Source of the DNA: an uncultured virus (IMG/VR IMGVR_UViG_3300042526_000204)
Lineage: Duplodnaviria > Heunggongvirae > Uroviricota > Caudoviricetes
Virus record (IMG/VR): IMGVR_UViG_3300042526_000204
Length of the DNA: 20,000 bases
Strand: one strand, 5' to 3'
Below the pieces are notes generated by a model that was given only the letters and a program-made list of their open reading frames with translations, ran no database searches and was not told the DNA's origin. Numbering within the stretch: position 1 is the first letter of the stretch; each line of letters begins with the position of its first letter. Positions 5,321 to 19,717 of the stretch are shown here, piece by piece. Made by a program: the position numbers and the translations under genes.

Positions 5321-8300
5321 TTATCTTTCTGATTGTTTTTTATCCAAAGCTGAGAAGTTAAAGATTAATCTTGTATCAGCAAAGTTATCAAATATTAACC
5401 TTACCACCAAGAACTTATCTCTGAAACTTTCTAACTGTGACCAATCCTTATTGTAATCAATAGCACTAGGATTAACTACCTTATCTATGTAATAATTACT
5501 TTGAAGAGAAGCTATATTTTTTAAGAACATAGGTACAGTATGAGCTCCAAAAAGGTTGTCTTGTTTTCTATAATCTTTAAGGTTGTTAAGAGTCCAGTCT
5601 CTTTCATTTCTATCTACTGTTACTACTCCTGGAGTATTACTAGTCTGTTGGAAGAAATAGTTGGTGCTATCATTTTGTTTAGGTGCTAAAGTAAGCATTC
5701 CAGTAGTTTGTAAAGTATTATAGAATACCCCTTTGTTAAAAGTCATATTAGGTTGATCTAAATACTCTTCTGAAACAGGGTCAAACTTCTTAGCTTCAGT
5801 TTGAAATAATATGTTATCCCAAACCTTAGTTGTTAAAGGTGAAGGGTTATCTACATACTCTACAATAAAAGGATAAGTAGTTCCATAAAAAGTTTGATAG
5901 TGATTAGGTCTGTTATGTTTCCATATGTAGTTAGACCCTTGTGGCCAAGAATAAAACTTTTCTTGAACATGCATATAGAAACTAGGAATATAAGGATGCC
6001 AACTTACCCACTCTTGTCTCTTTAAAGAGTAAGACATAGTGTACCCATTGTTTAGAATTTGAGGAACAAAGACTTGACCATTTTCATATTCTATTTGAGT
6101 TACAGGATATGTATTTGTAATTTCTACTTCTGTTCTTTCTATAGTAGAAGTTAAAACATTCTTCATATCTAAAGCAAATTGACAAGGAGAAATCATAAGT
6201 TCACTACCTGGACAATCTGTAGTAGCTAATGTAACTGGTATATTATTCTTATCAGAAATTACTGACCACCCATATTGTTCTAGTCCTGGATTAGTATCAG
6301 GAGCAGTTATTAAAGTTTTGTAAGGGTTAACAAGAAGTTTACTTTTTAAAGTTTCCCAATCTGCTGCAAGAGCTGGAGTAGTTGAAAAATATAAATTAAG
6401 AGGAAGATCATTAACTTCTGATATAGTATAGTTTCTCCCCTTAACAGCAGCTAAACAGTGCATAAGAAAGTTCTTAGATTTTGGAGTAGAAATTACAGGA
6501 TAACATATACCAACAAACTTTTCAAATGTAGAATGTACTCCACTTGCCCCTGTAAAATTATTATAATGAGTTGTGTAAGAAGTAGTAGGTTGTCCAGTAA
6601 AAGACATAAGTAAAGTACTAGTTACTATAGTTTGAGGAATTTGAGGATAAGTAGGAGGAGGTCCTAAAGGATCATTTACATATACTATTATTGTTTTATA
6701 AACATTATTGTAGTAAGGATTTACTTCATCTACAGCTTCATTTACAAAAGAGAGAAGTAGAACTTTACCTCTATCTGCTAAAGGAATTAAACTAGGGAAG
6801 TTTAACCATTTCTCTGTAGAGTTATAAACTTTTTGTGAAGTCCCTGTCCAACCTGAAGGCTCTAATTCATCAGTAATCCATTTATCAAAAGCATCTTCTA
6901 ACTGAGCTAACAATACAGGTTCCATAGTATCATCAAAGAAAGCCCAAACATCCATATCATTAGAAACAGAAACAAACTTAGTAACTGTATCAGTTTTAGT
7001 TTGGTAAGTAGTTTTTTCAAACTTCATCTTACAATCTTCTATACCAATATAATCCCACCCTGCTGCAAGTCTTGTTGCTATTATTTGGGCCATGTTAGGA
7101 AAAATAATAGTCTGACTTCCTTCAGAACAAATCTCATAAGAATTTAAAGGAAGATTAGTTATCTGACTATCTTTCTTAGTAATAATAAACCTTTCTTTAT
7201 TACTATCATAAGTAGATAAGAACCCTACTCCTAAAAGATTTGAGGGATTATTGTTGTATGGATATTCTCTTTTATTAATCTCATAGTATTGATCTTCTAG
7301 TAAAAAGTCCATGTGAGTTTTAAAGTAATTGCTATTACCACTATCACTAATAGGTTGTAAACTTTCTCCATTAAACAAATACCATTTCTTTTCTTTCCAA
7401 GATGGAAATAAGATACCATACTTAGTTTTAGTTCTTGCCCACTTATGTCTATTACCAGCAGAAGAGTTACTATCATCTACCATCTTTCTAGGAGGAATAG
7501 AAAAATACTCTCCTGTTCCAATAAAAGTTATTACATCATTAGTAACTCTTTCTTGGAAAGTCTGAGGACAATGCCATAACCCTTCTTCAGTATGAATATA
7601 AAGATTGTTTTGTACTCTAAAGATATCAGTAATCTCACCTGTCTCAGCTTCCAAATCTTTGTAGTTGTTAGGTAAGAACATTCTAAAGTTATCAGTAAGT
7701 TCTTCTTGGAAAGCTTGTTCTGACCAGTGCCATCTATGAGGAAAAGTTTCTATACAATCTGAACAACAATCATATTCTAAAGCTAAATGATTAAATATTT
7801 TTTGCTTGTTTCTTCTTGTATAATCAGGGTTTATTAGATAAACTTCTCCTGGAGGTATTTGTAAATAAGATCTTCCTCCTTGTCTTTTTTCATCTAAGTA
7901 GGTTAATTTGTTTAGCATGTAAAAATCAAAAGTAGTTGTAGGAAGAAGAGTGGTATCTCTTACATACCAAACACCATGAAACTCCCCATTAATTTCTACA
8001 TGGGTAACACCAGATTCTACTTTCCCTGGAGAATCTATAAAACCTGTAGTACCATCACTGAAACTATGTCTTAATCCCATGTTTACAGCTGACTCAAACC
8101 AAAGATTTACACACTCTCCTAACCATTGAATTTCATCATCTCCAGGATTAGCACTAAATCCTCTTTCATTAAATGAAACAGGGTCAGTATCATACAAAAC
8201 AAAACTGTCTGAAATAGTATCTCTTAATCCTACTTTATACATTTGATTATAAGCCTTACTCCAAGCTTCTGTTTTTACACCTGATAAAGTTAAAGCAACA

Positions 8301-11300
8301 CCTACTCCTGCCACAAGACCTATACCTGCTGTAATAGCTGCAGCAGCTACAAAAGAAAGAGTTCCCCAACTAATTACAGATAATACTACAGCTCCTACAA
8401 TTAAAAGAACTCCTACAAATATAGCCCAAAAACCTTTTTTTGTGGCTCTCCTACTTATTCTTGTATCATAGTAAACAGTGTTAACATATCTTATAGAGTT
8501 TATATAAGTATCTCCATTAAAGATTACACAACTGCCTTCATTAGTAGTATCATTAAAAAGTTCAGGATTCTGACTTTCTTTATAATAAGGATCTAATCTA
8601 TAGTTAGAATAAGGTTCTCTTAACTCTCTATATAAATAAACATAAGGTAATTTTCTAACAGGGTAGTAAACAAAATTTTCTTTTAAGTGTAATATACCTA
8701 TTTTATTATCTATAGCTAGATTAAAAACATTTACAGATGTATCAGTACTATCTTCAGTTAATCTATCTTCAAGAGCATTTAAGTAATAGATTTCTTTAAT
8801 ATCATCTTTATCTAAACTAAAAGAATTAGATGATTTAAAGTCTGTAAAAGTTTCTCTAGTTTTAATTTGAAGACTCCAACCATCATCATCAGAACCTTTA
8901 TGTCCTCTTTGCTTACTAGTTCCAGGTGCTACATCTTGTATTCTTACTCTACTTTTTACAACTTCTTCTTTTTCAAACTCTCCTTGTTGAATAATTTTAT
9001 TAAAAACAGAATATTTTCTACCATTAAATTTATGTTCAGGAGAAACAAAGGCTACTACATCTTTCTTAATTCTTTGAGCTTCAGTAGCAGCAGTATTAAA
9101 TTCAGGAAATATGAGACCTTGTGCTACAAAATTCTTTTGTTGTGTTGTAGAGAGAAGAACAGCACTATCTACAACAGTTCTGTCTTCTTCTTTTCTTTCA
9201 TTTCTTACAATATAATATCCTGTAACTTTTACTCCTCCTGTTACTTCTAGAGTAGGTCTTTGAATATTAGAAAACTTAATTCCAAAAATAGGACACACAT
9301 ATAAAGGTTCTTCAGAAAATAGTATTCCTACATATTTAGTTACTGTGTAAGTCATTCCAGTTACTCCAGAGGTTCCAGTATAAGAATATGTTTCTGTAAT
9401 TGGATCAAAAGTAGGTCCTGTTAAAGTTACAATGTTAATTTCAGGGTCTGCACTAGAATCTAAAACTTCTCTAATTTGAACTACTCCAACATTTAATCCA
9501 TTTATAGGAGAAGACTGTGCTGTATATTCTACATTTATACCATTGTCTTCATCAGGACCTATAGCATATTCTGCAGGGTCTATTGTCCCTGCATAAAAAG
9601 TTTCATTAATTGTACCATCAATAACATAATCTACTTCATAACTATATACACCACCAGGGTCATCAGGACTTCCAAAATCTGCTGGAGTTGAAGTACAAGG
9701 AGGTTCACCAGGAACAGGGTCAGGACAAATTACAGGACAAACAGCATCTTCTTTACTAACTTTTACTATTAATCTAGTTTGTTCAAAACTAGTGTTATCA
9801 GCTCCTTCAGTTACTTTTTCTACAAAAGGAATATTGTAATCAGTTCTTAAAGGAAACCTATGATGTCTAACAGGTTTATCAGTAAGACTAACTCCTTTAG
9901 AATCTTCTCCCCAATAAGTATCTATACCACAAGTAGGGTTATCAATGTATCTTGTAGATTCACATTGATTATCAATGTTACTCATAGGATAAATGTTACT
10001 ACCTACAGAATACATTTCATCTAAAGGAGTTCCAATATCAGGGTTTTTCCCAGGTATATGATACACAGGAGAAGTAGTGTTATCTTCAAAAATATAAACT
10101 ATACCAAAAGAGTATATCTCCCCTGGCATATAACCTACCCCATTAAAGTGAGCAGCAGGATCTTTAGAATTAGCTTCACTATCTTTAGATACTATTACAG
10201 TCTTTGTAATCATATCTGCATTAATCTTGCTAGCAAATTTTTGAAGTTTACAATAGTTAATTTGTTTTCCTTCTATGTTACCGAGGACTAATCTGTTTTC
10301 AATTTGTTCAATACTTTGAGCTTTGTCAATAATATTGTTAAACATTGTTACCTCTTCTTGAGAACCAATACTTTCATAGTTGGTTCCTGTGTAATTAAAA
10401 AAAGGTTGTTTTGTAGAAATTTCAGAAGTATATTTAGTATCAGTAATTAAACCTCCACCTGCAGTAGCTTCTGTTATTGCTAATCTATAGAAAGGAAAAT
10501 CAGTATCTAAACTAGTTGGGTCAAATTTAATTCTAATAGCTTTGTTACTAACAGGAAAATCATAATAAGTACTTTCTTTTTTTCCAGTAGCCCCTTTTTT
10601 ATCTTTATAAAGAGTTGTAGCAGGGTCATTATAAATACTTATAGTTTCTGTACTTGTTACAAATTCAGTAGGGTTAAAATCTTCATCAAGATACTGAATA
10701 GAAAAATTATAAGAACCAGGAGCTAAAGTTCCTGATGCATCTAAAACTTCAATACTTTCTACTACAGGTATTTTTTTGTAAACTTTAAATAAGTTAAACT
10801 TAGAAATAACCCACTCACCTGTAGTCTTATCTTGAAACTCTTCTTCTTTGTCTAAGATAAACATTCTAGGTTTAGGATCAATCCAATACACAACTCTCTC
10901 ACAACCTCTTCTTAATCTAAAAGTGGCATCAATTTGTTGAGTTATTTTAAAACCCATTTTTTCATCTTGATTCTTATCACTAAAAACAGTAGTAAGATTA
11001 CAATTTTTATCTGCTATAACCATAGCAGAGTTTCCATTAGGATTAGCTAAAAACAAAAGAGTATTCTCATCACCAATATATACCTTACCTATAGGCACAT
11101 AATTAACCCCTAATAAAACTTCATTAAGAAAGTCATAACAGTCTTCATTAGATTCTTCATTTGCAAGAAAACCTAAATCTCCTTCTTTAGTTTCATTTAC
11201 TCCTGTCAGAACAAATCTTGTGGTTCCTTGAGGTTGAGTGACTAAAGAGGAGTCTGTATTTAATCCCCCTGGTTGAGTTACATTACCTTCTTCTCCTCCA

Positions 11301-11344
11301 AGTTCTTGTTGTAATTGTTTTACAATACTTTTATCCTTTGCCAT
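5321..11344 (-). CDS. Tail stabilisation/muzzle (nozzle) protein, P22 gp10 / crAss001 gp44-like, with large insertions
   Basis: 2007 aa. It starts with GGLNTDSS, contains GYMPGEIYSFGIVY, RHHRFP and FLPNNYKDL...GEIT, and ends with TMSYSL...WVSWHPYIP...FRDKFLVVRLIFDN. These motifs are typical of crAss-like tail stabilisation proteins. It follows the tail tubular gene. Confidence 0.8.
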   Translation of the reverse strand: MAKDKSIVKQLQQELGGEEGNVTQPGGLNTDSSLVTQPQGTTRFVLTGVNETKEGDLGFLANEESNEDCYDFLNEVLLGVNYVPIGKVYIGDENTLLFLANPNGNSAMVIADKNCNLTTVFSDKNQDEKMGFKITQQIDATFRLRRGCERVVYWIDPKPRMFILDKEEEFQDKTTGEWVISKFNLFKVYKKIPVVESIEVLDASGTLAPGSYNFSIQYLDEDFNPTEFVTSTETISIYNDPATTLYKDKKGATGKKESTYYDFPVSNKAIRIKFDPTSLDTDFPFYRLAITEATAGGGLITDTKYTSEISTKQPFFNYTGTNYESIGSQEEVTMFNNIIDKAQSIEQIENRLVLGNIEGKQINYCKLQKFASKINADMITKTVIVSKDSEANSKDPAAHFNGVGYMPGEIYSFGIVYIFEDNTTSPVYHIPGKNPDIGTPLDEMYSVGSNIYPMSNIDNQCESTRYIDNPTCGIDTYWGEDSKGVSLTDKPVRHHRFPLRTDYNIPFVEKVTEGADNTSFEQTRLIVKVSKEDAVCPVICPDPVPGEPPCTSTPADFGSPDDPGGVYSYEVDYVIDGTINETFYAGTIDPAEYAIGPDEDNGINVEYTAQSSPINGLNVGVVQIREVLDSSADPEINIVTLTGPTFDPITETYSYTGTSGVTGMTYTVTKYVGILFSEEPLYVCPIFGIKFSNIQRPTLEVTGGVKVTGYYIVRNERKEEDRTVVDSAVLLSTTQQKNFVAQGLIFPEFNTAATEAQRIKKDVVAFVSPEHKFNGRKYSVFNKIIQQGEFEKEEVVKSRVRIQDVAPGTSKQRGHKGSDDDGWSLQIKTRETFTDFKSSNSFSLDKDDIKEIYYLNALEDRLTEDSTDTSVNVFNLAIDNKIGILHLKENFVYYPVRKLPYVYLYRELREPYSNYRLDPYYKESQNPELFNDTTNEGSCVIFNGDTYINSIRYVNTVYYDTRISRRATKKGFWAIFVGVLLIVGAVVLSVISWGTLSFVAAAAITAGIGLVAGVGVALTLSGVKTEAWSKAYNQMYKVGLRDTISDSFVLYDTDPVSFNERGFSANPGDDEIQWLGECVNLWFESAVNMGLRHSFSDGTTGFIDSPGKVESGVTHVEINGEFHGVWYVRDTTLLPTTTFDFYMLNKLTYLDEKRQGGRSYLQIPPGEVYLINPDYTRRNKQKIFNHLALEYDCCSDCIETFPHRWHWSEQAFQEELTDNFRMFLPNNYKDLEAETGEITDIFRVQNNLYIHTEEGLWHCPQTFQERVTNDVITFIGTGEYFSIPPRKMVDDSNSSAGNRHKWARTKTKYGILFPSWKEKKWYLFNGESLQPISDSGNSNYFKTHMDFLLEDQYYEINKREYPYNNNPSNLLGVGFLSTYDSNKERFIITKKDSQITNLPLNSYEICSEGSQTIIFPNMAQIIATRLAAGWDYIGIEDCKMKFEKTTYQTKTDTVTKFVSVSNDMDVWAFFDDTMEPVLLAQLEDAFDKWITDELEPSGWTGTSQKVYNSTEKWLNFPSLIPLADRGKVLLLSFVNEAVDEVNPYYNNVYKTIIVYVNDPLGPPPTYPQIPQTIVTSTLLMSFTGQPTTSYTTHYNNFTGASGVHSTFEKFVGICYPVISTPKSKNFLMHCLAAVKGRNYTISEVNDLPLNLYFSTTPALAADWETLKSKLLVNPYKTLITAPDTNPGLEQYGWSVISDKNNIPVTLATTDCPGSELMISPCQFALDMKNVLTSTIERTEVEITNTYPVTQIEYENGQVFVPQILNNGYTMSYSLKRQEWVSWHPYIPSFYMHVQEKFYSWPQGSNYIWKHNRPNHYQTFYGTTYPFIVEYVDNPSPLTTKVWDNILFQTEAKKFDPVSEEYLDQPNMTFNKGVFYNTLQTTGMLTLAPKQNDSTNYFFQQTSNTPGVVTVDRNERDWTLNNLKDYRKQDNLFGAHTVPMFLKNIASLQSNYYIDKVVNPSAIDYNKDWSQLESFRDKFLVVRLIFDNFADTRLIFNFSALDKKQSER

Positions 11345-11346
11345 AA

Positions 11347-12375
11347 TTATCTCATATAAGCTGAGTTACCTGATGTGTATCTGTATTTGTTTGTAAAGTT
11401 AGGATCATTAAATATCCTATCTTCTGCTTTACCAAGTTTACCAAAGAAACCATAGTATCTTTTATTTCTAGGTAGTAAGTAGTTTCCTTGCTCCATAAGG
11501 TTTTCATACTCATCAGTTCCCCAAGGCATTTTAGCTTTGTTCTTAAACTGTTTAATGTATTTCAACCATCTAGCTTCAGCTACTTGAGCAATCTGCATAG
11601 CACCTTCTCTGTGGTTCCAAGCTTCTCTTTCTTTTACTTTCCAACCTAAGTAGTAAGTAATAGCTGCTTTAGCTGACTCATCATCAGGAACCATAGGGTA
11701 ACCTGTTTCTATATCTACCTTAGTTCTAAGATAAGCTACAGCTACAAGACCTTCCTTAAAACTAAATCTAAGTTGGTCTTCAATTATGCTATACTCATCT
11801 GTAAGAGAGTTGCTATTATTATACAAGCCATCACTGTCTTTGCTTTGACAAACTAGTGTATTAAAGAAAGTATGATTAGCTAGTCTCACTGGAGTAAACT
11901 TACTTCTAAAAGCTTTAGAGTGAACCCACCCTAAATATTCATACTGAAGATCAAAATAAGGTCTGTAGTATCCCACTTCAGGATCTCCTATTAACTCTCC
12001 ATTACAATCTAATAAAACCATGTCATGTGCATGTGAAGTACAGCAAGTAGAACATCCACAATTTGTGTGAGGTGTTTCTGAGACAAGATCAGTAATAATA
12101 GCTTGAGGAGTACAACTAACTTTTTCAGTAGCTGTCCAAGTATTATTCTTTGCTACTTGGATTATGTATTGTAATCCATTAGGCAAAGTAGCTTGATAGT
12201 TCTTAACCTCTAAAAAAGCAATAGCTTCTTCTGACATAGTAGCCATTTTCATGTGCCCTAATGCTTCTCCTATCCATTCAATAGCATCATCTTCATTAAG
12301 CTCATTGCCTCTGAAGTCTCTTAGATACTTAGATAGGATTGTATCTACACTTACATATTGAAATCTTTGTTGCAT
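11347..12375 (-). CDS. Tail tubular/ring protein (P22 gp4-like; crAss-like ring 1)
   Basis: 342 aa. It carries YVSVDTILSK...DAIEWIGEAL...VKNYQATLP and FSFKEGLVAVAY...GYPMVPDDES...AITYY, as in crAss-like tail tubular proteins, and lies immediately upstream of the muzzle gene. Confidence 0.75.
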   Translation of the reverse strand: MQQRFQYVSVDTILSKYLRDFRGNELNEDDAIEWIGEALGHMKMATMSEEAIAFLEVKNYQATLPNGLQYIIQVAKNNTWTATEKVSCTPQAIITDLVSETPHTNCGCSTCCTSHAHDMVLLDCNGELIGDPEVGYYRPYFDLQYEYLGWVHSKAFRSKFTPVRLANHTFFNTLVCQSKDSDGLYNNSNSLTDEYSIIEDQLRFSFKEGLVAVAYLRTKVDIETGYPMVPDDESAKAAITYYLGWKVKEREAWNHREGAMQIAQVAEARWLKYIKQFKNKAKMPWGTDEYENLMEQGNYLLPRNKRYYGFFGKLGKAEDRIFNDPNFTNKYRYTSGNSAYMR

Positions 12376-12376
12376 C

Positions 12377-12643
12377 TTAGTCTAGTTTATCTGCCAAAGA
12401 TTTATCTTTAGGCATGTTGATTTTAACTGGGTTTTCTTTTTGGAACCATTCTTTAGAAAAGTAATCATACTTAGTGTCATCACTTCCTTGAGGTGTCCAT
12501 TGAATATCATAACTCTTACAAATTATAAATCCATTTTCAATTTCTCTGACTCTGATATTAGTACTTTTCTTTACTATTGTTGCTCCTTCAGGTAGAGTGA
12601 AAGTCTTTTTACCTTCTATCTCTGCATTCATTATTTCTGCCAT
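12377..12643 (-). CDS. Small hypothetical phage protein (88 aa from the likely start)
   Basis: The track ORF starts at 12667, inside the upstream gene. The ATG at 12643 (TAAAAACATG; MAEIMNAEIEGKK...) avoids the overlap and matches the tight stop-start coupling seen elsewhere. It contains IRVREIENGFII. Confidence 0.7.
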   Translation of the reverse strand: MAEIMNAEIEGKKTFTLPEGATIVKKSTNIRVREIENGFIICKSYDIQWTPQGSDDTKYDYFSKEWFQKENPVKINMPKDKSLADKLD

Positions 12644-12647
12644 GTTT

Positions 12648-14075
12648 TTATGCTTTAGTGTATTCAAGAATTAATAAGAAGTCATTGATTGTAATGGCAC
12701 TTTGTGCTTCTTCAAATGTAACATTATTTCTATTAAGCATAATAACACCTGTAGAACCAATTCCAACATTAGAAGTAGCTCTAGCCATAGTAATTGGAAA
12801 AAACCAAGCAGCATCTTCTGTTGTAACACCTACAGGTGCATTAACAGTAACATCAGCTCTAAGGTACTTATCAATGTTTAAATTATGAACAATACCTACT
12901 CCTGCTGGAGCATCTAAAAGACCAGGTACAGTGAAAGCAATTACCTTTCTGTAGATAGGTTTACCATCAATCCAAGTTCCTCCTGTAAGAGCTTCTGTTT
13001 GAGAATAAGAATTATTTAGTTCTATAGGTTTATCAACTCTAATAATATTTGAATTATTATCAATGCCTAAAATTCTTCTGTTGTCTATGGTGATTTTACT
13101 AACACTATCAACACTATTGTTAACATAATAAATATTACCTAATGAATCTACAGTAATATCAAAAACATTTTCGTCTTCGCTTATAGTAGTTAATACACTT
13201 GTAGGAGTTCTTTTAACTACTTTTAATGCCCCACCTACATAAACATTATTTAAAGAATCTGTAGTTATACAATAAGGAAATACTACTGCGGTACTAAAAA
13301 CACTTCTTGCTCCTCCAGAAGTAATCCTATTTATAGTGTTGTTTGTATGACAAGTAAAAACATTACCTAATGAATCTACAGTTATATCTGTAGGATCAGG
13401 ACTTATAATACTTAAAGTACTAGGTGTTCCAACAGAGGTAATTTTAGTAATATTACTTGAAAGTTTATTAGCTGTATAAATATTTCCTGCTGAATCAACA
13501 GTTATAGCTCTAGGTTCGTTTCCAACAGATGCAAAAATACTTGGGTTTCCTGCTGGAGTTATTTTAGTAACAGTATCATCTACAGCACTACAAGTATATA
13601 TATTGTTTAATGAATCTATAGTTATGGCAATAGGTTTATTAATTGTACTAGCAAAAACACTTGAAAACCCTCCTGAAGTTATCTTAGTTACGTTATCCGA
13701 ACCAAAATTACAAGTATAAACATTACCTGAAGAATCTACTACTATTCCAATAGGCTGACTTCCTGTTGTTCCTAAAGTACTTGATGTTCCATCTGGAGTA
13801 ATTTTAGTTACATTATCTGAAAGTCTATTAGCTGTATAAGTATTTCCTAATAAATCTCTAGCAATACTATAGGGTTGAGATCCTGTAGTTCCTAAAATAG
13901 AAGTTGTATTTTCAATAGGTGGTATAGCTACTTCTATTTCATTTGAAATAATGTTAATATTTTTCCCTTCTAATAATGTTTGACCACTACCCCCTAATTG
14001 TTTTTTTGTTTGGTAGTATAAGTCTACTACTAATTGCTCTAATTTCTTTATTCTGAGTAATAACTGCTTTTCCAT
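12648..14075 (-). CDS. Putative fibre/receptor-binding protein: shared leader, 7 NHL/Vgb-like beta-propeller repeats and a C-terminal fibre-tip-like domain
   Basis: 475 aa. Seven ~40-aa repeats (P-x-x-I-x-x-D-S-x-G-N-x-Y...V-T-K-I-T) at about aa 60-332. The C-terminal YSQTEALTGGTWIDGKPIYRKV is a motif common in phage fibre C-terminal domains. Confidence 0.7.
   Translation of the reverse strand: MEKQLLLRIKKLEQLVVDLYYQTKKQLGGSGQTLLEGKNINIISNEIEVAIPPIENTTSILGTTGSQPYSIARDLLGNTYTANRLSDNVTKITPDGTSSTLGTTGSQPIGIVVDSSGNVYTCNFGSDNVTKITSGGFSSVFASTINKPIAITIDSLNNIYTCSAVDDTVTKITPAGNPSIFASVGNEPRAITVDSAGNIYTANKLSSNITKITSVGTPSTLSIISPDPTDITVDSLGNVFTCHTNNTINRITSGGARSVFSTAVVFPYCITTDSLNNVYVGGALKVVKRTPTSVLTTISEDENVFDITVDSLGNIYYVNNSVDSVSKITIDNRRILGIDNNSNIIRVDKPIELNNSYSQTEALTGGTWIDGKPIYRKVIAFTVPGLLDAPAGVGIVHNLNIDKYLRADVTVNAPVGVTTEDAAWFFPITMARATSNVGIGSTGVIMLNRNNVTFEEAQSAITINDFLLILEYTKA
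13080..13898 (-). repeat. Seven tandem ~120-bp coding repeats (beta-propeller blades)
   Basis: Examples: ILGTTGSQPYSIARDLLGNTYTANRLSDNVTKITPDG / TLGTTGSQPIGIVVDSSGNVYTCNFGSDNVTKITSGG / IFASVGNEPRAITVDSAGNIYTANKLSSNITKITSVG. Confidence 0.9.
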
Positions 14076-14553
14076 TTTAGTTTAAATTAAATTAAGTTAA
14101 TCTTATTTTTACTACTCCTGCTGTGTGATATAAACCTCCAACAGGTATTCCTCCTGCTGCAGCTAAAGCATCAGTTGCGTAATCATTTGATAATGGTGCT
14201 GTCATAATAAATTTACTACCTGTGACATCACCTGTTCTGTTTACTGAAAAAGTAGTTGCACCATTATTTGCCCCAACATAACAAAAACCTGTTGTAAGAC
14301 TATTAGAATATATACCTATACCACCATTAGCAGTTATTGAAGATAAAGCAGTTGATCCAGGTTGAGTATTAAAATTTCTTACAGCAACATTTATTGGAAA
14401 TCCAATATTTTCAAAAGTTTTTGCTCCTTCTATAGATTGATTACCAGTTATTAAAACTGCTCCTGCTTGTTGAGTACCACTTCTTACATTACGAAATAAG
14501 TCTACCACTAGTTGTTCTAGTTTCTTTATTCTAAGTAATAATTGTTTTTCCAT
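14019..14553 (-). repeat. 57-bp dispersed repeat at the 5' ends of two adjacent genes (14497-14553 and 14019-14075)
   Basis: Both copies encode MEKQLLLRIKKLEQLVVDL. They match at 50 of 57 nt, and all 7 differences are synonymous. Confidence 0.95.
14092..14553 (-). CDS. Short fibre-like virion protein with the shared N-terminal leader
   Basis: 153 aa. TGNQSIEGAKTF is a tail-fibre shaft-type motif. The C-terminus YATDALAAAGGIPVGGLYHTAGVVKIRL is of a type seen at the ends of phage fibre proteins. The first 19 aa are identical to those of the next gene. Confidence 0.65.
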   Translation of the reverse strand: MEKQLLLRIKKLEQLVVDLFRNVRSGTQQAGAVLITGNQSIEGAKTFENIGFPINVAVRNFNTQPGSTALSSITANGGIGIYSNSLTTGFCYVGANNGATTFSVNRTGDVTGSKFIMTAPLSNDYATDALAAAGGIPVGGLYHTAGVVKIRLT

Positions 14554-14584
14554 AATAATCTTAGTTGATATTAATTATAAATTT

Positions 14585-16894
14585 TTATACACAAGGTACA
14601 TACACAAAGTCAATAGCACCACTTACTTTTCTAATACAAGTTACACAAGAATCTATAACAGAAGATAGTAAAGTGTTAGGTGGAAGATTTACAGCTCCTA
14701 TATCTTCTGAACAAGTTACAACATATATTTCTATAGTCTCAGTTAAACTAGGGTTTAAAATATCAAATTCACAACAACCTGCTTTATCTATACCTTCTCC
14801 TTTTGAAAGAACTTGTGCCATACATATACTAGTTCCTGAAGTTAGTACAAAATCTTGAACCCAAGTTCCATCACATTTATAACCAGTAATTGTTTGGTCA
14901 CTAATAAGATTATTTATGTAAGTATCACAACATAGTTCTTTACCTGGACAGTATCTTCCAAAAATACCATTAATAAATTCAGTGCAATCTGTACAATCTT
15001 TATGCACTCCTCCAATATCTGATGCAGTAATTGTAGCTACTCCTGTATCACTCCAAGATAATATTTCATAACAACCAAGACCTGTTGTAAGAACTAGTGA
15101 TAGTGCTTCTCCTACATTATACACAGGTTGTAAAGCTACTACTTCAATCTCTTCTGTACAACAATTTTGTACTGTGTAATAAAATGTTGTTGGGCATTCA
15201 TTATCTGCTAGACAATCAGTACAAGCATCAGTACCATAATCTACAGCAGGAATAATAAATGATAAATCAGGAAAAGCATAAACAGTACCAGTAGTCATTA
15301 TTGTCCAACACATTCCAAAAGTATCAACAAAAGTACTATCAACTAAAAGACTAGGTAATGTAGTCTGAAGTAATTCTAATGTAGTAAAGCCAACTAATTC
15401 TCCTTCATTACAACAAGAACTTAAAGCTACCACAGTAGGACAATCATTAGCAGTAACACACTCTGCACTTAAACAAGTTGTATTAGGATAAACTGTATCT
15501 ACTTCTACTACATTTGTAATAGGACCTCCTGTTATTTTTGTTACACCCCAGCAGAATCCATTTACATCTACAAAAGTATCTCCTACATTAACTCCAATTA
15601 AAGCTGCTGAAAATACTTCTTCTTCTTCTTCTTCTCCACAACAAGGCTGAATTGTAAAGTTTTGAGGACATGGATTATTAGCCATACATAAAATACAATC
15701 TTCATAAGAATTAGATAAAATTCTAGTTGATGTTACAGCATCTAATGTTGTTGATTCTACACTCCAACAATTCCCATCACTGTCAACAAAAGATTCTCCA
15801 ACAGGAGTTCCATTATTAATAATGATTTCTGAGTAAGCAGGATCACAGCAATTTCTAATAAATAAATTTTCTCCTATACCAATACAAGCTTGAGTAACAT
15901 CTAATGTATAAGAGAATCTAACATCTATTGGAGCAATAGTGTCTCCTTCCTCAGTACCTACAGTCATACCTACAACAAAAAATGTTTCATCTGCAGGTAA
16001 CACACTTGCTAACACAGTTGTTTCTGAGAAACAAACTTTTAAATTATTACTAAGAAATGAATATGGAGCAACAGGTATCACTGTAGATAATGAAATAACA
16101 CCATCTCTAGTTGAGATAGTTGAACAATCAAAACGTGAAACAGTGATATAAAATTTAGGGTTGATTAACTCTACACTGTTAGTTACATCAAGATATGCAA
16201 TACCAGAAATTTTTATTGTATCTCCTATGTTTAAATCTATAGAAAGAGGAATACCAATATTAGCAATTAGACCTTTTGTAACAATTAAATTTCCAAAACC
16301 ATCAACTGCAAATGATGATTCATAGGCTCCATAAGACCAACCAAGACGAGAAGTAAGATTTCCACCAAACATAGATTCTATATTAGGAGAATTATAATTG
16401 TCTGATTCAAAAGCCCCAGACACTGCAGCTAATTTAAAGTGGTCAGGACAAGATCCTCCTCCTCCAGTACCAGGAGGACCTATCTCTCCCTGAAGACCTT
16501 GTTCCCCTTGTTCACCTTGAAGACCTTGCTCTCCCTGTTCTCCTGTATTTCCTGTGTCTCCTTTAGATGCTACAAGTTGCCACCCATTACTAGGTGGAGA
16601 GAAAGAAGAAAAAATTAAAGTAGGAGCATAATAAGAAGAACCATTAAACTCAACTACATCTCCTTCAGAATAATCAGTTCCATTTACCCAAGGTCCAGTA
16701 AAATTCCAAAGAGCATCTATACCATCTGCACCTGGCTCTCCTTGTTCTCCTTGTTCTCCTTGTTCTCCATCTGCACCTGGAACCCCAGGTGGGCCTGGAG
16801 GACCAGGAGGTCCCTGTTCTCCTGAAGAAGGAAAACACAAGCACTGAAAAAGGTGCTCTAATTTTTTAAGTCTGTGTTCAAAATTATTTAGCAT
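14585..16894 (-). CDS. Collagen-like fibre protein with a CBM5/12-like insert and Cys-rich tandem repeats
   Basis: 769 aa. Gly-X-Y runs at 16715-16822 (12 triplets) and 16472-16561 (10 triplets) flank WNFTGPWVNGTDYSEGDVVEFNGSSYYA...WQLVASKG. Four 6-Cys repeats follow at about aa 344-650. Confidence 0.75.
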   Translation of the reverse strand: MLNNFEHRLKKLEHLFQCLCFPSSGEQGPPGPPGPPGVPGADGEQGEQGEQGEPGADGIDALWNFTGPWVNGTDYSEGDVVEFNGSSYYAPTLIFSSFSPPSNGWQLVASKGDTGNTGEQGEQGLQGEQGEQGLQGEIGPPGTGGGGSCPDHFKLAAVSGAFESDNYNSPNIESMFGGNLTSRLGWSYGAYESSFAVDGFGNLIVTKGLIANIGIPLSIDLNIGDTIKISGIAYLDVTNSVELINPKFYITVSRFDCSTISTRDGVISLSTVIPVAPYSFLSNNLKVCFSETTVLASVLPADETFFVVGMTVGTEEGDTIAPIDVRFSYTLDVTQACIGIGENLFIRNCCDPAYSEIIINNGTPVGESFVDSDGNCWSVESTTLDAVTSTRILSNSYEDCILCMANNPCPQNFTIQPCCGEEEEEEVFSAALIGVNVGDTFVDVNGFCWGVTKITGGPITNVVEVDTVYPNTTCLSAECVTANDCPTVVALSSCCNEGELVGFTTLELLQTTLPSLLVDSTFVDTFGMCWTIMTTGTVYAFPDLSFIIPAVDYGTDACTDCLADNECPTTFYYTVQNCCTEEIEVVALQPVYNVGEALSLVLTTGLGCYEILSWSDTGVATITASDIGGVHKDCTDCTEFINGIFGRYCPGKELCCDTYINNLISDQTITGYKCDGTWVQDFVLTSGTSICMAQVLSKGEGIDKAGCCEFDILNPSLTETIEIYVVTCSEDIGAVNLPPNTLLSSVIDSCVTCIRKVSGAIDFVYVPCV
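14945..15865 (-). repeat. Four ~70-80-aa Cys-rich coding repeats (CC...VGxxFVDxxGxCW...CxxC...CP)
   Basis: Visible in translation: NCC..VGESFVDSDGNCW..CILC..NPCP; PCC..VGDTFVDVNGFCW..CLSAEC..NDCP; SCC..VDSTFVDTFGMCW..CTDC..NECP; NCC..VGEA..GLGCY..CTDC..YCP. Confidence 0.9.
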
Positions 16895-16897
16895 GAC

Positions 16898-17368
16898 TTA
16901 TGATTTTATTAGATATTCTTTTCCTTGTTTTATACTATAATGTATAGTTCTTTTATTAGCTCTAGTTAGAATAAAGTTATAATAAAGTTTATTCTCTATT
17001 GGCACTCTATTCTTAGACCAGTGTAATTTATAAACTACACCATCAGTTTCTTCATTAAGACAATACACAATCTTTCTTGTTGCTTTTGCATCAGGATTGT
17101 TTTCCCAAAGCTTCTTAGTCTTTGACCAATTAGGAGGCAACATTGGAATACCATCTTTATTAAATTGTAATTTCTTTTTTACTCCTTGAATAAACAAAGT
17201 ACCTAATCTAGCAGGCATTGTAACCTCTTCTCCTTGTACTGCTTTCTGAATTAAAAACTCCATGTAACCATTAGCTATTGAGATAAAAGAGTTTATCTCA
17301 ACAGGAGTCTTTACTTCTTTAGAATATCTTTTGTAAGAAGTTCTTATATTTAAATCAGTCTTTTGCAT
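16898..17368 (-). CDS. IHF/HU-like DNA-binding protein (crAss-like IHF family)
   Basis: 156 aa, basic. It has a helix followed by QGEEVTMPARLGTLFI (HU/IHF-type turn), then PNWSKTKKLW...IVYCLNEETDG...WSK. An IHF-like gene near the ring and tail tubular genes is typical of crAss-like phages. The start overlaps the upstream stop (TAATG). Confidence 0.7.
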   Translation of the reverse strand: MQKTDLNIRTSYKRYSKEVKTPVEINSFISIANGYMEFLIQKAVQGEEVTMPARLGTLFIQGVKKKLQFNKDGIPMLPPNWSKTKKLWENNPDAKATRKIVYCLNEETDGVVYKLHWSKNRVPIENKLYYNFILTRANKRTIHYSIKQGKEYLIKS

Positions 17369-18069
17369 TATCTTCCTTCAGGTCTTTGTATATCTCTTGA
17401 GTTATTAGCATTGTCTTCTCCTCTTCCTGCAAATATACCAATAATTTCTGCAACACATATATCAATTAAAGGTTCTATTAAATCTCCATCAATATTAAAT
17501 TCATGGTCATAAGCTGGAATACAATCTGTACAATTTTCACAATCATCACACAAAGAAGGAAAATGCATAGCTTCTAAAGGATCTTCAGCAAGAAGTTTAA
17601 TCTTAACTATACCTGGAGATTTCTTTATTGGAAAATACAAATAACCATTCTCAAATAAGAACTTAGGTTTGTTTCCTGTGTATTTATTACCTTTTAAATA
17701 AAGAACACCTTGTCTTGAAACTTCTTCTATTCTCATTCCATTTTCAACAGACATAACAAATTCTATGTAATGTCTATTAGAATCTGTCAATACTCTTGGT
17801 ATAGGAAATTTAGTTCTAAATACATCACAACCTAAATCTCCAAGACAAGAGCATTCATGATTAGGTACTTTAATAAGTTCTACACAAGGTAGTACAGAAT
17901 AGTTCCAATCACTAACTCTTTGTTTTTTCTTAAGTTGTTGAGAAATAAGTTGCATTCTAACTGTGAGAATTTTGTTATAGACATGTCTATCTGATAACCT
18001 AGACTCATCACTAGATACCCCTTTAGAATAAAGGGATTGAATTCTTTCTATAACTTCTCTAATAAACAT
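17368..18069 (-). CDS. Putative tail ring/adaptor protein (crAss-like ring 2 type)
   Basis: 233 aa. It contains SSDESRLSDRHVY, LPCVELIKV...C-x-C...RTKFPIP and ENGYLY...EDP...C...D-x-EFNID...NANNSRD. Size, motifs and position fit crAss-like ring proteins. Confidence 0.65.
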   Translation of the reverse strand: MFIREVIERIQSLYSKGVSSDESRLSDRHVYNKILTVRMQLISQQLKKKQRVSDWNYSVLPCVELIKVPNHECSCLGDLGCDVFRTKFPIPRVLTDSNRHYIEFVMSVENGMRIEEVSRQGVLYLKGNKYTGNKPKFLFENGYLYFPIKKSPGIVKIKLLAEDPLEAMHFPSLCDDCENCTDCIPAYDHEFNIDGDLIEPLIDICVAEIIGIFAGRGEDNANNSRDIQRPEGR

Positions 18070-18071
18070 GC

Positions 18072-18401
18072 TTATTGAATTTTAAAAATTACACCTTGTG
18101 CTAAAGCACTTGCTATTGTAGTGTTTATTGTACTATTTACTTTAACATTAAAAATTACCACTTTAGGATAATCTCCTTCTTTAACAAATGCAGTAGCTTT
18201 CTTTACTGACCAATTTGTAACAGCTCTAATAAAAGTAACTGTAGCAGTTTGTTTTGCTGCAGGTACAGTAATTAACACTAAGTCTAGTTGTTTTCCAATA
18301 CCCTGTTTTTGATCTAATTTTTTACTTTCATTAGGAAAGAAAAGACCAAAAGATAATGTACCTATTGCTTTTTTAAGTCTGTGTAATTCAAAATGTTTCA
18401 T
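18072..18401 (-). CDS. Protein with the shared-type leader fused to a divergent ribosomal L7/L12 C-terminal-like (ClpS-like fold) domain
   Basis: 109 aa. Residues ~38-109 (LDLVLITVPAAKQTATVTFIRAVTNWSVKKATAFVKE...PKVVIFNV...ALAQGVIFKIQ) align by eye with the bL12 CTD ([45 protein letters not shown]...LEEAGAEVEVK). Confidence 0.55.
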   Translation of the reverse strand: MKHFELHRLKKAIGTLSFGLFFPNESKKLDQKQGIGKQLDLVLITVPAAKQTATVTFIRAVTNWSVKKATAFVKEGDYPKVVIFNVKVNSTINTTIASALAQGVIFKIQ

Positions 18402-19129: not shown

Positions 19130-19717
19130 CTAAGAGATTGTAAGCTTGGTAATTGTCTTTTTTACTTCAGTCATAACTTTAGTAAAATTCTTCTTAATAT
19201 CAAACCCTGCTCTTTTAAAATTCTCAAAGAATATAGAGTAAAATTCTATAGCACAACAGAACCCAATAAAGATTAAAGTAAGAGTCATATCCTCATTACT
19301 TATGTGACTTAGTTTAAAACTTCTAATAATAAATACTTTCTCTATTCCCCATACTGCAAGTATTGCACTAGCATAAGTAAAAGCTTTAATTCCAGAAAGT
19401 TTCAATTTGTCAGAAGATATTAAATTTTTCTCTTTTAAACTTGGATCTAATTCTTCAGCTTGTTTTTTCTCTTTCCAAGAAGCAAGGATACCTGTTATAA
19501 AATCTAACACATAAAATGCTACTAATAAATAGACAGCTTTTTCTGTATTAGTCATTGCAGAAGCAACTATGACAGTTCCTGTTGTTACTCCTGTCACAGG
19601 ACTTGATACCATTGTCTTTAAACTAATTCCTAACTTTAAAAAATACTTAGTGTAAAGAGAAAGCCATTCCATAATACAATGATTTACAAGTGTTAAAGGA
19701 TATGTCAGTGTTTTCAT
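19130..19717 (-). CDS. Holin-like membrane protein (phage holin family 4-like)
   Basis: 195 aa with 3-4 hydrophobic helices, LDFITGILAS...ISSDKLK...GIK and IEFYSIFFENFKRAG, and a basic C-terminus. The true start may be the ATG at 19672. Confidence 0.7.
   Translation of the reverse strand: MKTLTYPLTLVNHCIMEWLSLYTKYFLKLGISLKTMVSSPVTGVTTGTVIVASAMTNTEKAVYLLVAFYVLDFITGILASWKEKKQAEELDPSLKEKNLISSDKLKLSGIKAFTYASAILAVWGIEKVFIIRSFKLSHISNEDMTLTLIFIGFCCAIEFYSIFFENFKRAGFDIKKNFTKVMTEVKKTITKLTIS

What the first reader, a model, noticed from the sequence alone, without database searches (positions are those of the whole stretch)
12648..18401. Four genes share a conserved N-terminal leader fused to four unrelated payloads: a candidate plug-in virion display system
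Seen in the sequence: the 475-aa and 153-aa genes both start MEKQLLLRIKKLEQLVVDL. The 769-aa gene starts MLNNFE-HRLKKLEHLFQCLCFP and the 109-aa gene starts MKHFELHRLKKAIGTLSFGLFFP. The last two share a 16-bp identical stretch (16862-16877 and 18369-18384) and ATTTTGAA[tta]CACAGACTTAAAAAA, differing by a one-codon indel. The common core is R-[IL]-K-K within an amphipathic helix. After the leader the proteins are unrelated: beta-propeller, short fibre, collagen plus Cys repeats, and an L7/L12-like domain. Inference: the ~20-aa helix is a coiled-coil docking or trimerisation tag that attaches interchangeable modules to a common site on the capsid or tail collar. This could allow mixed decoration or hetero-oligomers.
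Basis: partly seen in the sequence, partly recalled or inferred. Interest (0 to 1): 0.85.

Follow-up and report, generated by a model that had tools for sequence, protein, structure and literature searches.

The report
Swappable coiled-coil leaders on phage fibres
Three fibre genes of an uncultured crAss-like phage begin with the same kind of 25-residue helical tag, which related phages shuffle freely among different binding domains, most likely to bundle each fibre into a trimer and mount it on the particle; the fourth gene only mimics the tag and is a small look-alike of a ribosomal protein.

Summary
The window is the tail module of an uncultured crAss-like phage related to Flavobacterium phages.

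F475 and F153 share an identical 19-residue start that differs at 7 silent bases and at no amino acid. F769 carries a related leader (profile-profile E 4e-6, Met to Met in register). Both leader classes have a strict heptad pattern, with hydrophobic residues at 5, 9, 12, 16, 19 and 23, plus R8 and E13. Class A ends in VDLY and class B in a Cys-Cys motif.

Across public data, 116 proteins carry these leaders: 115 at residue 1, and one at a Met 18 residues into an over-long gene call. Their payloads fall into 29 clusters. Three clusters carry either class, with payloads up to 83-84% identical behind unrelated leaders. So a modular, exchangeable N-terminal module is shown. That it trimerises and docks the fibres on the virion is inferred, by analogy with crAss001 gp22 residues 1-26 and the "conserved peptide" of Klebsiella phage receptor-binding proteins. 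No THA/THB hub genes were found, so the docking site is unknown.

The 109-aa protein is not a member. Its family profile does not match either class, and it has a bL12/ClpS-fold C-terminal domain. Its likeness to F769 is a patch specific to this genome. This is a new variant of a known kind, of moderate interest.

The parts
14001..14075 (-). Class A leader of F475 (residues 1-25, MEKQLLLRIKKLEQLVVDLYYQTKK)
   Evidence: Heptad hydrophobics at 5, 9, 12, 16, 19, 23. E13 and D18 invariant, Y20 nearly so, in the class.
12648..14075 (-). F475: class A leader, Gly/Ser linker, NHL/SBBP beta-propeller and a C-terminal domain
   Evidence: SBBP 2e-17, Vgb_lyase 2.9e-15, NHL 1.3e-7; phrog_8401.
14479..14553 (-). 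Class A leader of F153 (the first 19 residues are identical to F475, with 7 silent base differences)
14092..14553 (-). F153: class A leader plus a small fibre-like payload
   Evidence: weak BppL_N, 20 bits, below the cut-off; nearest Atlas clusters are phage hyaluronidase-type trimeric fibres, score 0.90, a lead only.
16820..16894 (-). Class B leader of F769 (MLNNFEHRLKKLEHLFQCLCFPSSG). Residues 3-11 are P109-like; residues 12-20 are typical class B with Cys18 and Cys20.
14585..16894 (-). F769: class B leader, two collagen stretches (about residues 25-58 and 109-147), a CBM_5_12-like piece and Cys-rich repeats of about 75 aa
   Evidence: Collagen 4.4e-10; phrog_5073 tail fiber 2.3e-21; repeat families D1, D7, D9, D17, D18.
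18072..18401 (-). P109: a conserved 109-aa protein. N-terminal three short helices (3-28), polar linker, bL12-CTD/ClpS-fold domain (41-109). Not a member of leader classes A or B.
17368..18069 (-). Tail ring protein 2 (R2)
   Evidence: PF25702, 2.5e-37.
16898..17368 (-). IHF/HU-like protein, homologue of crAss001 gp42. It marks the upstream border of the variable fibre slot.
   Evidence: E 3e-14; gene maps.
12377..12643 (-). P96: a conserved small beta protein (phrog_16394) inside the fibre slot. The likely start is the ATG at 12643 (88 aa).
11347..12375 (-). Tail ring protein 1 (R1), with about 85 extra residues relative to crAss001 gp43. It marks the downstream border of the fibre slot.
   Evidence: PF24228, 3.8e-57.
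5321..11344 (-). Muzzle protein
   Evidence: PF25731, PF25729; phrog_15100.

Best explanation
F475, F153 and F769 are accessory fibre or decoration proteins of a crAss-like phage. Each begins with a leader of about 25 residues that forms three heptads of a parallel, probably trimeric, coiled coil, followed by a Gly/Ser/Pro linker and a free-standing binding payload. The leader comes in two related classes of equal length and register. Class A ends in V-D-L-Y-x-K. Class B ends in a Cys-Cys or C-x-C knot and is often followed directly by collagen.

Shown: the leader is a separate evolutionary module that recombines with payloads, and the protein sequence, not the DNA, is what selection holds constant.

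Inferred: the leader nucleates the trimer and plugs it into a site on the virion, and the two classes address two different sites or partners. F475 and F153, with identical leaders, would then use the same site. The site is unknown, because this lineage lacks recognisable THA/THB hub genes. The enlarged R1, R2, the muzzle or a primary fibre encoded upstream of the window are candidates.

P109 is a different thing. It is a conserved small protein with a bL12-CTD/ClpS-fold domain. Its first 11 residues resemble F769 only in this genome, probably through a short 5' sequence exchange or convergence.
For: Context:
- The genes sit in a crAss-type tail block, R2 - IHF-like - [fibres] - P96 - R1 - muzzle.
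- In 31 related loci the slot between the IHF-like gene and R1 holds 0-5 variable genes. It holds only P96 in Flavobacterium phage Fpv1.

Leader is real and N-terminal:
- An iterated leader HMM hits 33 of 487 N-termini and 0 of 4943 internal control segments at E<0.01.
- In 5.8 billion proteins, class A finds 87 and class B 29 at E<=0.01. All 87 class A matches and 28 of 29 class B matches start at the N-terminus. The one exception is an upstream-extended gene call.

Modularity:
- The 116 proteins fall into 29 payload clusters. Three clusters hold both classes, giving 75 cross-class pairs.
- P0127 (A) and P0205 (B) are 79% identical overall, but their leaders differ.
- L004 458 aa (A) and L009 452 aa (B) are 58% identical, with leaders aligned in register and without gaps.

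A and B are related: hhalign probability 87%, E 4e-6, Met to Met.

Coiled coil:
- LIVMF occupies 99-100% of positions 5, 9, 16, 19 and 23 in class A (28% at 12, which is mostly Ala).
- LIVMF occupies 90-100% of positions 5, 9, 12 and 19 in class B. There, 16 is 59% LIVMF (mostly Tyr otherwise) and 23 is 52%.
- E13 is present in 86 of 86 and 29 of 29. R8 is present in 68 of 86 and 29 of 29.
- By established coiled-coil rules, R8 (g) and E13 (e') are an i to i'+5 ion pair.
- The collagen payloads are obligate trimers.

Protein-level constraint: 7 silent and 0 replacement differences between the two class A leaders.

Known analogues:
- In crAss001, residues 1-26 of the trimeric fibre gp22 are held in the docking hub (PMC10172136, passages read).
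- In Klebsiella podophages, a short N-terminal conserved peptide docks secondary receptor-binding proteins (PMC6872550 passages; PMC13352976 abstract).

P109 is separate. Its bL12-type domain.
Against: - No result here shows that any of these proteins is in the virion, is trimeric, or binds anything.
- THA (PF25724) and THB (PF25711) pass the cut-off in 0 of 5 relatives' records, and neither matched any of the 13 window proteins scanned at E<=0.01. The crAss001 docking site therefore has no visible counterpart.
- The leader HMMs do not match crAss001 gp22 or any of the other 24 crAss001 N-termini tested below E 0.01. gp22 scores E 1.2 with class A; the best score overall is 0.037, gp25 with class C.
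- No column of R1, R2, the IHF-like protein or the exonuclease separates genomes with class B from those without.
- No deposited phage genome carries the leader or P109, so no proteomics can be consulted.
- Single-class HMMs do not find the other class. The A-B relationship rests on one profile-profile comparison and on in-register alignments.
- P109 co-occurs with class B in the 11 loci where the whole exonuclease-to-R1 stretch is seen (window included). Class B also follows the IHF-like gene in 3 further P109-bearing loci cut short (L043-L045), while a fourth (L037) ends after two class A genes. It is absent from the fibre slot in the 21 loci without P109. This could mean P109 belongs to the system after all.
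Confidence: 0.65

Rival explanations
1. The leader is only a folding and oligomerisation nucleus, like a foldon or the coiled-coil and cystine-knot starters of collagens. It plays no part in attachment. The proteins are then attached by other parts, or are soluble trimeric lectin-like proteins released at lysis.
For: The heptad pattern, the R8-E13 pair and the Cys-Cys motif next to collagen are what a trimer nucleator needs. No docking partner was found.
Against: - The leader is the only element shared by payloads of 29 unrelated clusters. If they attach at all, nothing else is common to them.
- Two conserved classes, with invariant surface residues (D18, Y20 and K22 in A; C20 in B), are more than oligomerisation requires.
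- The genes lie inside the tail gene block.
Confidence: 0.17
2. All four proteins, P109 included, form one system. P109 is a small adaptor or placeholder whose N-terminal helices pair with, or occupy the same site as, class B leaders. It would display a bL12-like domain on the particle.
For: - P109 and class B occur together in the 11 loci seen whole. Both are missing in L011 and L015, which are nested among carriers.
- P109 sits directly upstream of R2, where crAss001 has THB.
- In the window, codons 3-11 of F769 match P109 at 25 of 27 nt (my count on the alignment).
- The local pair score is reached by 2 of 682 background comparisons.
Against: - Profile-profile comparison gives no relation (probability 0.5%).
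- P109 lacks E13 and the heptad after residue 12.
- Only 1 independent pair lies on supported branches, 3 on all branches, so the co-occurrence cannot reach significance.
- The F769-P109 patch is unique to this genome. The other 28 of 29 class B proteins have x-[KN]-S-[IL]-Q-[ED] at residues 2-7.
Confidence: 0.12
3. The shared starts are kept at the DNA level, as homology arms for cassette exchange or as a translational or regulatory element, rather than for the protein.
For: The leader sits exactly at the recombination junction between conserved flank and variable payload. A short DNA patch is shared by F769 and P109.
Against: - The two class A leaders differ at 7 of 11 silent sites and at no replacement site.
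- The upstream non-coding DNA is not conserved beyond AT-richness.
- Promoter-like and terminator-like sites are at chance level.
Confidence: 0.04
4. The leader is a capsid-targeting or ejection signal that loads the proteins inside the particle. The capsid-targeting sequence of T4 internal proteins is the model (recalled, not looked up).
For: It is a short conserved N-terminal tag on unrelated proteins. crAss-like phages do carry cargo proteins (PMC10172136).
Against: The payloads are typical external binding modules: collagen, beta-propellers, a CBM-like piece and fibre-like folds. The cargo genes lie downstream of the muzzle gene and lack the leader.
Confidence: 0.02

Closest known systems
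Conserved N-terminal docking peptide of secondary receptor-binding proteins in Klebsiella podophages and in K1-5/SP6/G7C-type phages (Latka et al. 2019, PMC6872550; 2026, PMC13352976)
   Same: A short N-terminal sequence is conserved within a phage group and sits in front of divergent, horizontally exchanged payloads. Several such proteins occur per genome. The principle of plug-in fibres at defined positions is the same.
   Different: - Those peptides are 7 to some tens of residues long and dock on a T4gp10-like branching domain of a primary fibre or on an adaptor. No such partner was seen here; the upstream fibre cluster lies outside the window.
- This leader is a three-heptad coiled coil in two related classes, one with a Cys knot.
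- There is no sequence similarity.
crAss001 tail fibre gp22, whose residues 1-26 sit in the THA2-THB docking hub on R1/R2 (Bayfield et al. 2023, PMC10172136)
   Same: The same virus order and the same R1/R2/muzzle tail barrel. A trimeric fibre is held by its first ~26 residues.
   Different: No THA/THB genes are detectable. The leader HMMs do not match gp22. The fibre genes lie between the IHF-like gene and R1 instead of after the portal gene.
crAss001 head fibres gp21 and gp29, bound in hexon pockets by residues 1-38 and 1-58 (PMC10172136)
   Same: Small proteins are anchored by their N-termini, with free C-terminal domains. The small class A proteins (137-170 aa) are of similar size.
   Different: There is no sequence relation. 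The same leaders also carry payloads of 450-1266 aa.
Phage-encoded bL12-domain proteins (Mizuno et al. 2019, PMC6375957). This comparison concerns P109 only.
   Same: A small phage protein with a bL12 C-terminal-type domain. Such domains occur in phages either alone (about 100 aa) or inside larger proteins.
   Different: P109 does not reach Pfam's threshold for Ribosomal_L12 and has no bL12 N-terminal domain or Ala/Pro hinge. Its function, on the ribosome or in the virion, is open.

Membership tests
Modular fibre with conserved N-terminal docking peptide (Latka-type) | A short N-terminal sequence conserved among proteins whose remaining sequence is unrelated | tested here: met
   116 proteins in 29 payload clusters. 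The leader is at the N-terminus in all but one, which is an extended gene call.
Modular fibre with conserved N-terminal docking peptide (Latka-type) | Payloads are exchanged horizontally while the N-terminus stays fixed, or the reverse | tested here: met
   Sharp identity breaks at about residue 30. Three payload clusters carry both leader classes.
Modular fibre with conserved N-terminal docking peptide (Latka-type) | A partner docking domain (T4gp10-like branching domain or adaptor) on another virion protein | not tested
   The main fibre cluster lies upstream of the window's end. In relatives only the N-termini of its proteins were read and four of them were scanned against Pfam (collagen and a CBM_5_12 piece, no docking-type domain). 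No structure-based search was done.
Modular fibre with conserved N-terminal docking peptide (Latka-type) | The peptide is required for incorporation into the virion | not testable with these tools
   This needs an isolate and genetics. No deposited phage carries the leader.
crAss001-type fibre docking hub | THA and THB hub proteins encoded next to R2 | tested here: not met
   PF25724 and PF25711 pass the cut-off in 0 of 5 relatives' records. Neither family matched any of the 13 window proteins at E<=0.01.
crAss001-type fibre docking hub | R1, R2 and muzzle tail barrel | tested here: met
   PF24228, PF25702, PF25731.
crAss001-type fibre docking hub | The fibre N-terminus is related to gp22 residues 1-26 | tested here: not met
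   Leader HMMs against 25 crAss001 N-termini: gp22 scores E 1.2 and none falls below 0.01.
Parallel trimeric coiled coil | Heptad a/d hydrophobic pattern over at least 3 heptads | tested here: met
   Positions 5, 9, 12, 16, 19 and 23 carry the pattern. LIVMF is 90-100% at most of them. Exceptions: position 12 in class A is mostly Ala; positions 16 and 23 in class B are 59% and 52% LIVMF.
Parallel trimeric coiled coil | Trimeric state | not testable with these tools
Ribosomal protein bL12 (P109) | C-terminal beta-alpha-alpha-beta-alpha-beta domain | tested here: met
   - AF2 model, pLDDT 84.
- Foldseek: 1ctf, target-normalised TM 0.77; ClpS E 2.7e-3.
- Viral library: top hit is a phage RplL, E 4.9e-4.
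- The family profile hits three multi-repeat Ribosomal_L12 proteins at E 7e-5 to 8e-4.
Ribosomal protein bL12 (P109) | Passes Pfam Ribosomal_L12 (PF00542) gathering score | tested here: not met
   0 families for the window protein. 4 of 41 family members match, best E 0.0082. 0 of 5 records match.
Ribosomal protein bL12 (P109) | N-terminal dimerisation and uL10-binding domain (PF16320) and a flexible hinge | tested here: not met
   PF16320 matches 0 of 5 records. The linker is 12 polar residues, not an Ala/Pro hinge.

The most novel reading that the evidence does not exclude
P109 is a structural partner of class B fibres. A ribosomal-stalk-type protein (bL12-like domain on a short helical N-terminus) would have been recruited as a small adaptor or site-filler on the tail of this crAss-like lineage, replacing the missing THB. 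The short sequence exchange between the P109 and F769 starts in this genome would be tolerated because both N-termini fit the same site.
Probability: 0.12. Interest if true: 0.7.

Novelty: new variant of a known kind. Interest (0 to 1): 0.42.

Why it matters
crAss-like phages are abundant, but the way they mount and exchange host-recognition modules is known from one structure only (crAss001). This lineage shows a simple, sequence-defined rule: a three-heptad leader in two classes, a linker, then any payload.

The rule explains how a variable slot in the tail operon is refilled. It gives a handle for listing receptor-binding modules in metagenomes, with 116 proteins and 29 payload types found here. 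It also predicts where a foreign domain could be attached to such a particle.

The lineage seems to lack the crAss001 hub proteins, so the docking site itself is an open structural question. The principle of N-terminal docking peptides is already established in other phages, which limits the surprise.

Tried and rejected
- Whole genome: none is held for this window, so the leader census rests on the window, 44 related loci and protein databases.
- Megablast against deposited phages: no match.
- Single-sequence PDB searches for the 156-aa, 109-aa and 96-aa proteins: nothing below E 0.26.
- P96 as a possible hub: the model is a three-strand meander (pLDDT 76) with no PDB match below E 0.1. This remains unresolved.
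- THA/THB search in relatives: nothing over the cut-off. The one weak match lies inside the muzzle ORF.
- Search for residues or cysteines in R1, R2, the IHF-like protein or the exonuclease that track class B: no fully discriminating column. R2 C205 is present in 11 of 11 carriers against 6 of 21 non-carriers, which is only partial.
- Within-genome agreement of residues 8-11 across classes, as a sign of a shared partner: seen in the window only. I read the leaders listed for five other genomes with two or more classes and none showed it, so I dropped it as a general rule.
- Co-evolution test of P109 with class B: 1 independent pair on supported branches, so there is no power.
- Complex prediction (three class B leaders plus P109) was not available, and nothing was folded. 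No statement about binding follows from it.
- Signal-peptide reading: rejected on sight, because the leader is charged and amphipathic with no hydrophobic core.
- Earlier notes of this scan: nothing on this genome or on these sequences.


Full report
WHAT THE WINDOW IS. All genes lie on the minus strand. Pfam and PHROGs identify a crAss-type tail module. In transcription order it reads:
- holin-like gene (19130-19717)
- PD-(D/E)XK exonuclease (18404-19108)
- P109 (18072-18401)
- ring protein 2 (17368-18069, PF25702, 2.5e-37)
- a 156-aa homologue of crAss001 gp42, IHF/HU-like (16898-17368; E 3e-14)
- F769, F153 and F475
- a small conserved protein, P96 (12377-12643)
- ring protein 1 (11347-12375, PF24228, 3.8e-57)
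- the 2007-aa muzzle protein, followed by two cargo-like proteins

No deposited phage is close at the DNA level. By protein, the nearest are 29 Flavobacterium psychrophilum phage records of the FpV4/Fpv1 group, at about 55% identity in R1. No whole genome is held for the window.

THE OBSERVATION.
- The quoted starts, the 16-base identity and its coordinates are all correct.
- F475 and F153 share 19 identical residues encoded with 7 base differences, all silent (pS 0.64, pN 0). The chance that 7 random changes are all silent is about 5e-6. Directly after the leader, identity falls to 19 of 60 bases, and BLASTP finds nothing else in common. Selection therefore holds the peptide, not the DNA, and the duplication is old.
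- I scored each pair against 682 comparisons of its two leaders with 341 unrelated N-termini from the same phage group. The A-A pair is unmatched (0 of 682). F475-F769 is unmatched without gaps (0 of 682; local score 9 of 682). F769-P109 is matched twice (2 of 682). F475-P109 and F153-P109 are ordinary (123 and 117 of 682).

THE LEADER IN RELATIVES.
- I fetched 31 loci through R1 and 13 through P109.
- The gene maps show a conserved frame: exonuclease - [P109] - R2 - IHF-like - [0 to 5 variable genes, P96 among them] - R1 - muzzle. In Fpv1 the slot holds only P96.
- An HMM seeded with the four window leaders and iterated over 487 N-termini converged on 33 hits at E<0.01. It gave 0 hits at that level among 4943 internal 32-residue control segments.
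- The hits fall into three groups: class A (M-E-K-Q-I-L-x-R-I-K-K-x-E-Q-R-V-V-D-L-Y-x-K), class B (M-x-K-S-I-Q-E-R-L-x-x-L-E-R-x-x-R-x-L-C-C) and the P109 family.

THE LEADER IN PUBLIC PROTEINS.
- In a 5.8-billion-protein collection, the class A profile found 87 proteins (103-603 aa) and the class B profile 29 (127-1266 aa) at E<=0.01.
- The match starts at the N-terminus in all 87 class A proteins and in 28 of 29 class B proteins. The exception has an upstream-extended gene call.
- No deposited phage genome carries the class A leader or P109.

MODULARITY IS SHOWN.
- After removal of the first 28 residues, the 116 proteins fall into 29 payload clusters. Three clusters contain both leader classes, giving 75 cross-class pairs with payload identity up to 83-84%.
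- P0127 (class A) and P0205 (class B) are 79% identical overall, yet residues 1-30 differ.
- L004 458 aa (A) and L009 452 aa (B) share a DUF5122 beta-propeller payload at 58% identity, and their leaders align without a gap.
- L006 267 aa (A) and L007 309 aa (B) share a 150-residue module at 71%.
- Named payload types are collagen, DUF5122 and NHL propellers, and CBM_5_12. Most payloads have no family.

WHAT THE LEADER LOOKS LIKE.
- Put in register, both classes place large hydrophobic residues on a 3-4 heptad spacing at positions 5, 9, 12, 16, 19 and 23.
- LIVMF is 99-100% at 5, 9, 16, 19 and 23 in class A, where 12 is mostly Ala. It is 90-100% at 5, 9, 12 and 19 in class B, where 16 is 59% (Tyr otherwise) and 23 is 52%.
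- E13 is invariant (86 of 86; 29 of 29). R8 is present in 68 of 86 class A and 29 of 29 class B proteins.
- With 9 as an 'a' position, R8 is 'g' and E13 is 'e'. This is the i to i'+5 ion pair of parallel coiled coils. That step is inference from textbook coiled-coil geometry.
- Class A adds invariant D18 and near-invariant Y20 and K22. Class B adds invariant C20, mostly with C21 or C18.
- Gly, Ser, Pro and Thr dominate from about residue 25.
- Profile-profile comparison relates A and B in register, Met to Met (probability 87%, E 4e-6). Single-class HMMs do not retrieve the other class.
- Many class B leaders, and some class A leaders, run straight into collagen repeats, which require three chains. 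A trimeric parallel coiled coil, in class B locked by a cystine knot, is therefore the most economical reading.
- The oligomeric state was not tested, because the complex predictor was unavailable.

HOW IT MOST LIKELY WORKS.
- Shown: an N-terminal module that is exchanged independently of the payload and is held constant at the protein level.
- Inferred: it nucleates the trimer and docks it on the particle.
- The inference rests on three things. The leader is the only element common to 29 unrelated payload types. The genes sit inside the tail operon between R2 and R1. And there are precedents.
- In crAss001 each of 12 hubs on R1/R2 accommodates residues 1-26 of the trimeric fibre gp22, and the head fibres gp21 and gp29 bind hexon pockets by residues 1-38 and 1-58 (PMC10172136, passages read).
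- In Klebsiella podophages a short N-terminal 'conserved peptide' docks the second receptor-binding protein on a branching domain of the first (PMC6872550 passages). This was confirmed by engineering (PMC13352976, abstract only).
- The two classes, each with its own invariant surface residues, would address two sites or partners. The same payload occurring on either class fits relocation between positions.
- F475 and F153, with identical leaders, would share one site, by competing or alternating. Heterotrimers cannot be judged here.

WHAT IS MISSING.
- The crAss001 hub has no counterpart. THA and THB Pfam models pass the cut-off in 0 of 5 relatives' records, three of them 99-100% complete, and neither matched any of the 13 window proteins at E<=0.01.
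- The leader HMMs do not match gp22 or any other of 25 crAss001 N-termini.
- R1 here has about 85 more residues than crAss001 gp43, in the middle of the protein and including a Cys cluster. That makes it a candidate site, but no column of R1, R2, the IHF-like protein or the exonuclease tracks the presence of class B.
- P96 gave no structural match.
- Relatives carry further fibre genes upstream of the holin gene, with other helical, Cys-bearing starts: MAGIEERL..LE.IL..LCC plus collagen, and MALLEIERIKKDI..RCL. A primary fibre outside the window may therefore be the platform.

P109 IS SOMETHING ELSE.
- It has 91 homologues of 106-129 aa and no Pfam domain. The first 45 residues are its best-conserved part.
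- The AF2 model (pLDDT 84) shows three short helices (3-13, 15-21, 23-28), a polar linker and a beta-alpha-alpha-beta-alpha-beta domain.
- That domain is of the bL12-CTD/ClpS fold, on five lines of evidence:
  - The family profile's best PDB hit is Thermotoga L7/L12 (E 0.062).
  - Foldseek gives ClpS at 2.7e-3 and E. coli L7/L12 CTD at target-normalised TM 0.77.
  - The best viral hit is a phage RplL (E 4.9e-4), and the list also holds bL12-CTD proteins of crAss-like phages.
  - Ribosomal_L12 is the most frequent Pfam family among members, but in only 4 of 41, best E 0.0082.
  - An exhaustive profile search of 1.84 billion representatives found, beyond 14 full-length family members, three proteins (E 7e-5 to 8e-4) that Pfam calls multi-repeat Ribosomal_L12.
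- The Pfam thresholds for the bL12 C- and N-terminal domains are not met. It is therefore a bL12-like domain protein, not a bL12.
- Phage bL12-domain proteins are known (PMC6375957, passages read).
- The P109 family profile is unrelated to leader classes B and A (probability 0.5% and 3%). P109 lacks E13 and the heptad after residue 12.

WHY F769 AND P109 LOOK ALIKE HERE.
- In the DNA alignment of class B and P109 gene starts from five genomes, by my count F769 codons 3-11 match window P109 at 25 of 27 bases with one codon missing. F769 codons 2-11 match its own closest orthologue at only 20 of 30.
- At residues 2-7, the other 28 of 29 class B proteins read x-[KN]-S-[IL]-Q-[ED], while F769 alone reads LNNFEH. 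P109 families read K-H-L-E-L-H.
- R-[IL]-K-K at residues 8-11 is a minority state in every class (8 of 84, 2 of 28, 9 of 91), yet it is present in all four window genes. In the five other genomes with two or more classes whose leaders I read, I saw no such agreement.
- Whether the exchange was tolerated because the two N-termini do similar jobs is open. P109 and class B co-occur in the 11 loci seen whole. Three further P109-bearing loci that are cut short (L043-L045) also have a class B gene right after the IHF-like gene, and one more (L037) ends before the question can be answered. Both are absent in the 21 loci without P109, including L011 and L015 nested among carriers. The tree offers only one independent contrast on supported branches.

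VERDICT.
For three genes it reflects a genuine, widespread, exchangeable leader.
- The docking or trimerisation reading is the best explanation (0.65) but is unproven.
- The fourth gene is a separate, mildly interesting bL12-like protein.
- The kind of system, N-terminal docking tags on modular phage fibres, is known. What is new is the coiled-coil form, the two interchangeable classes, and its occurrence in a crAss-like lineage without recognisable hub proteins.

Noticed in passing
window 18072-18401 (-): P109 is an undescribed family (91 homologues, no Pfam hit) with a bL12-CTD/ClpS-fold domain. It extends the set of phage bL12-like proteins to a Flavobacterium-type crAss-like lineage. Structural neighbours include bL12-CTD proteins of other crAss-like phages.
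   Followed up: yes
P0227, P0228, P0229: Three proteins of 163-278 aa from the representative library carry 2-4 tandem Ribosomal_L12 C-terminal domains (Pfam E 1e-18 to 1e-29). This is an unusual repeat architecture. Their source and function are unknown.
   Followed up: partly
window 11347-12375 (-), residues 75-204 of R1: R1 is 342 aa against 236 aa in crAss001. The extra ~85 residues lie mid-protein and hold a variable Cys cluster (C106 and C108 occur only in the window's closest kin). It is a possible replacement for the missing hub.
   Followed up: partly
window 12377-12643 (-): P96 (phrog_16394) is conserved in most relatives and ends in K-S-L-A-D-K-L-D. It is predicted as a three-strand beta meander with no PDB match. 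The ORF list starts it at a TTG (12667) overlapping F475, but homologues fit the ATG at 12643.
   Followed up: partly
window 14585-16894 (-), about 14650-16400: F769 holds about four or five Cys-containing repeats of roughly 72-81 aa (motif F-V-D-x-x-G-x-C-W), seen as DNA repeat families D7, D9, D17 and D18. They match no Pfam family.
   Followed up: no
L041:3884-6676, L042:5369-6295, L042:6310-7539, L039:3823-7242, L046:5030-7479: The fibre cluster upstream of the holin gene in relatives uses further conserved helical, Cys-bearing starts on proteins of 274-1140 aa: MAGIEERL..LE.IL..LCC plus collagen, and MALLEIERIKKDI..RCL. The whole fibre set of this lineage may follow the same leader logic.
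   Followed up: partly
L033:8453-13366 (crAss001 gp25, gp26): crAss001 gp25 and gp26 share an N-terminal motif (..R.DT..RW...NPVL..GE..) in front of different bodies. This is a parallel case of a shared fibre start in the reference crassvirus.
   Followed up: no
L018:about 11000-17000: In locus L018 the muzzle gene appears as two ORFs (467 and 1517 aa). This could be a frameshift, a sequencing error or a real split.
   Followed up: no
window 17368-18069 (-), R2 residues 174-183: R2 carries a C-x2-C-x2-C-x2-C run (CDDCENCTDC) that is largely conserved across relatives. It fits the disulfide-stabilised barrel described for crAss001, or a metal site.
   Followed up: no
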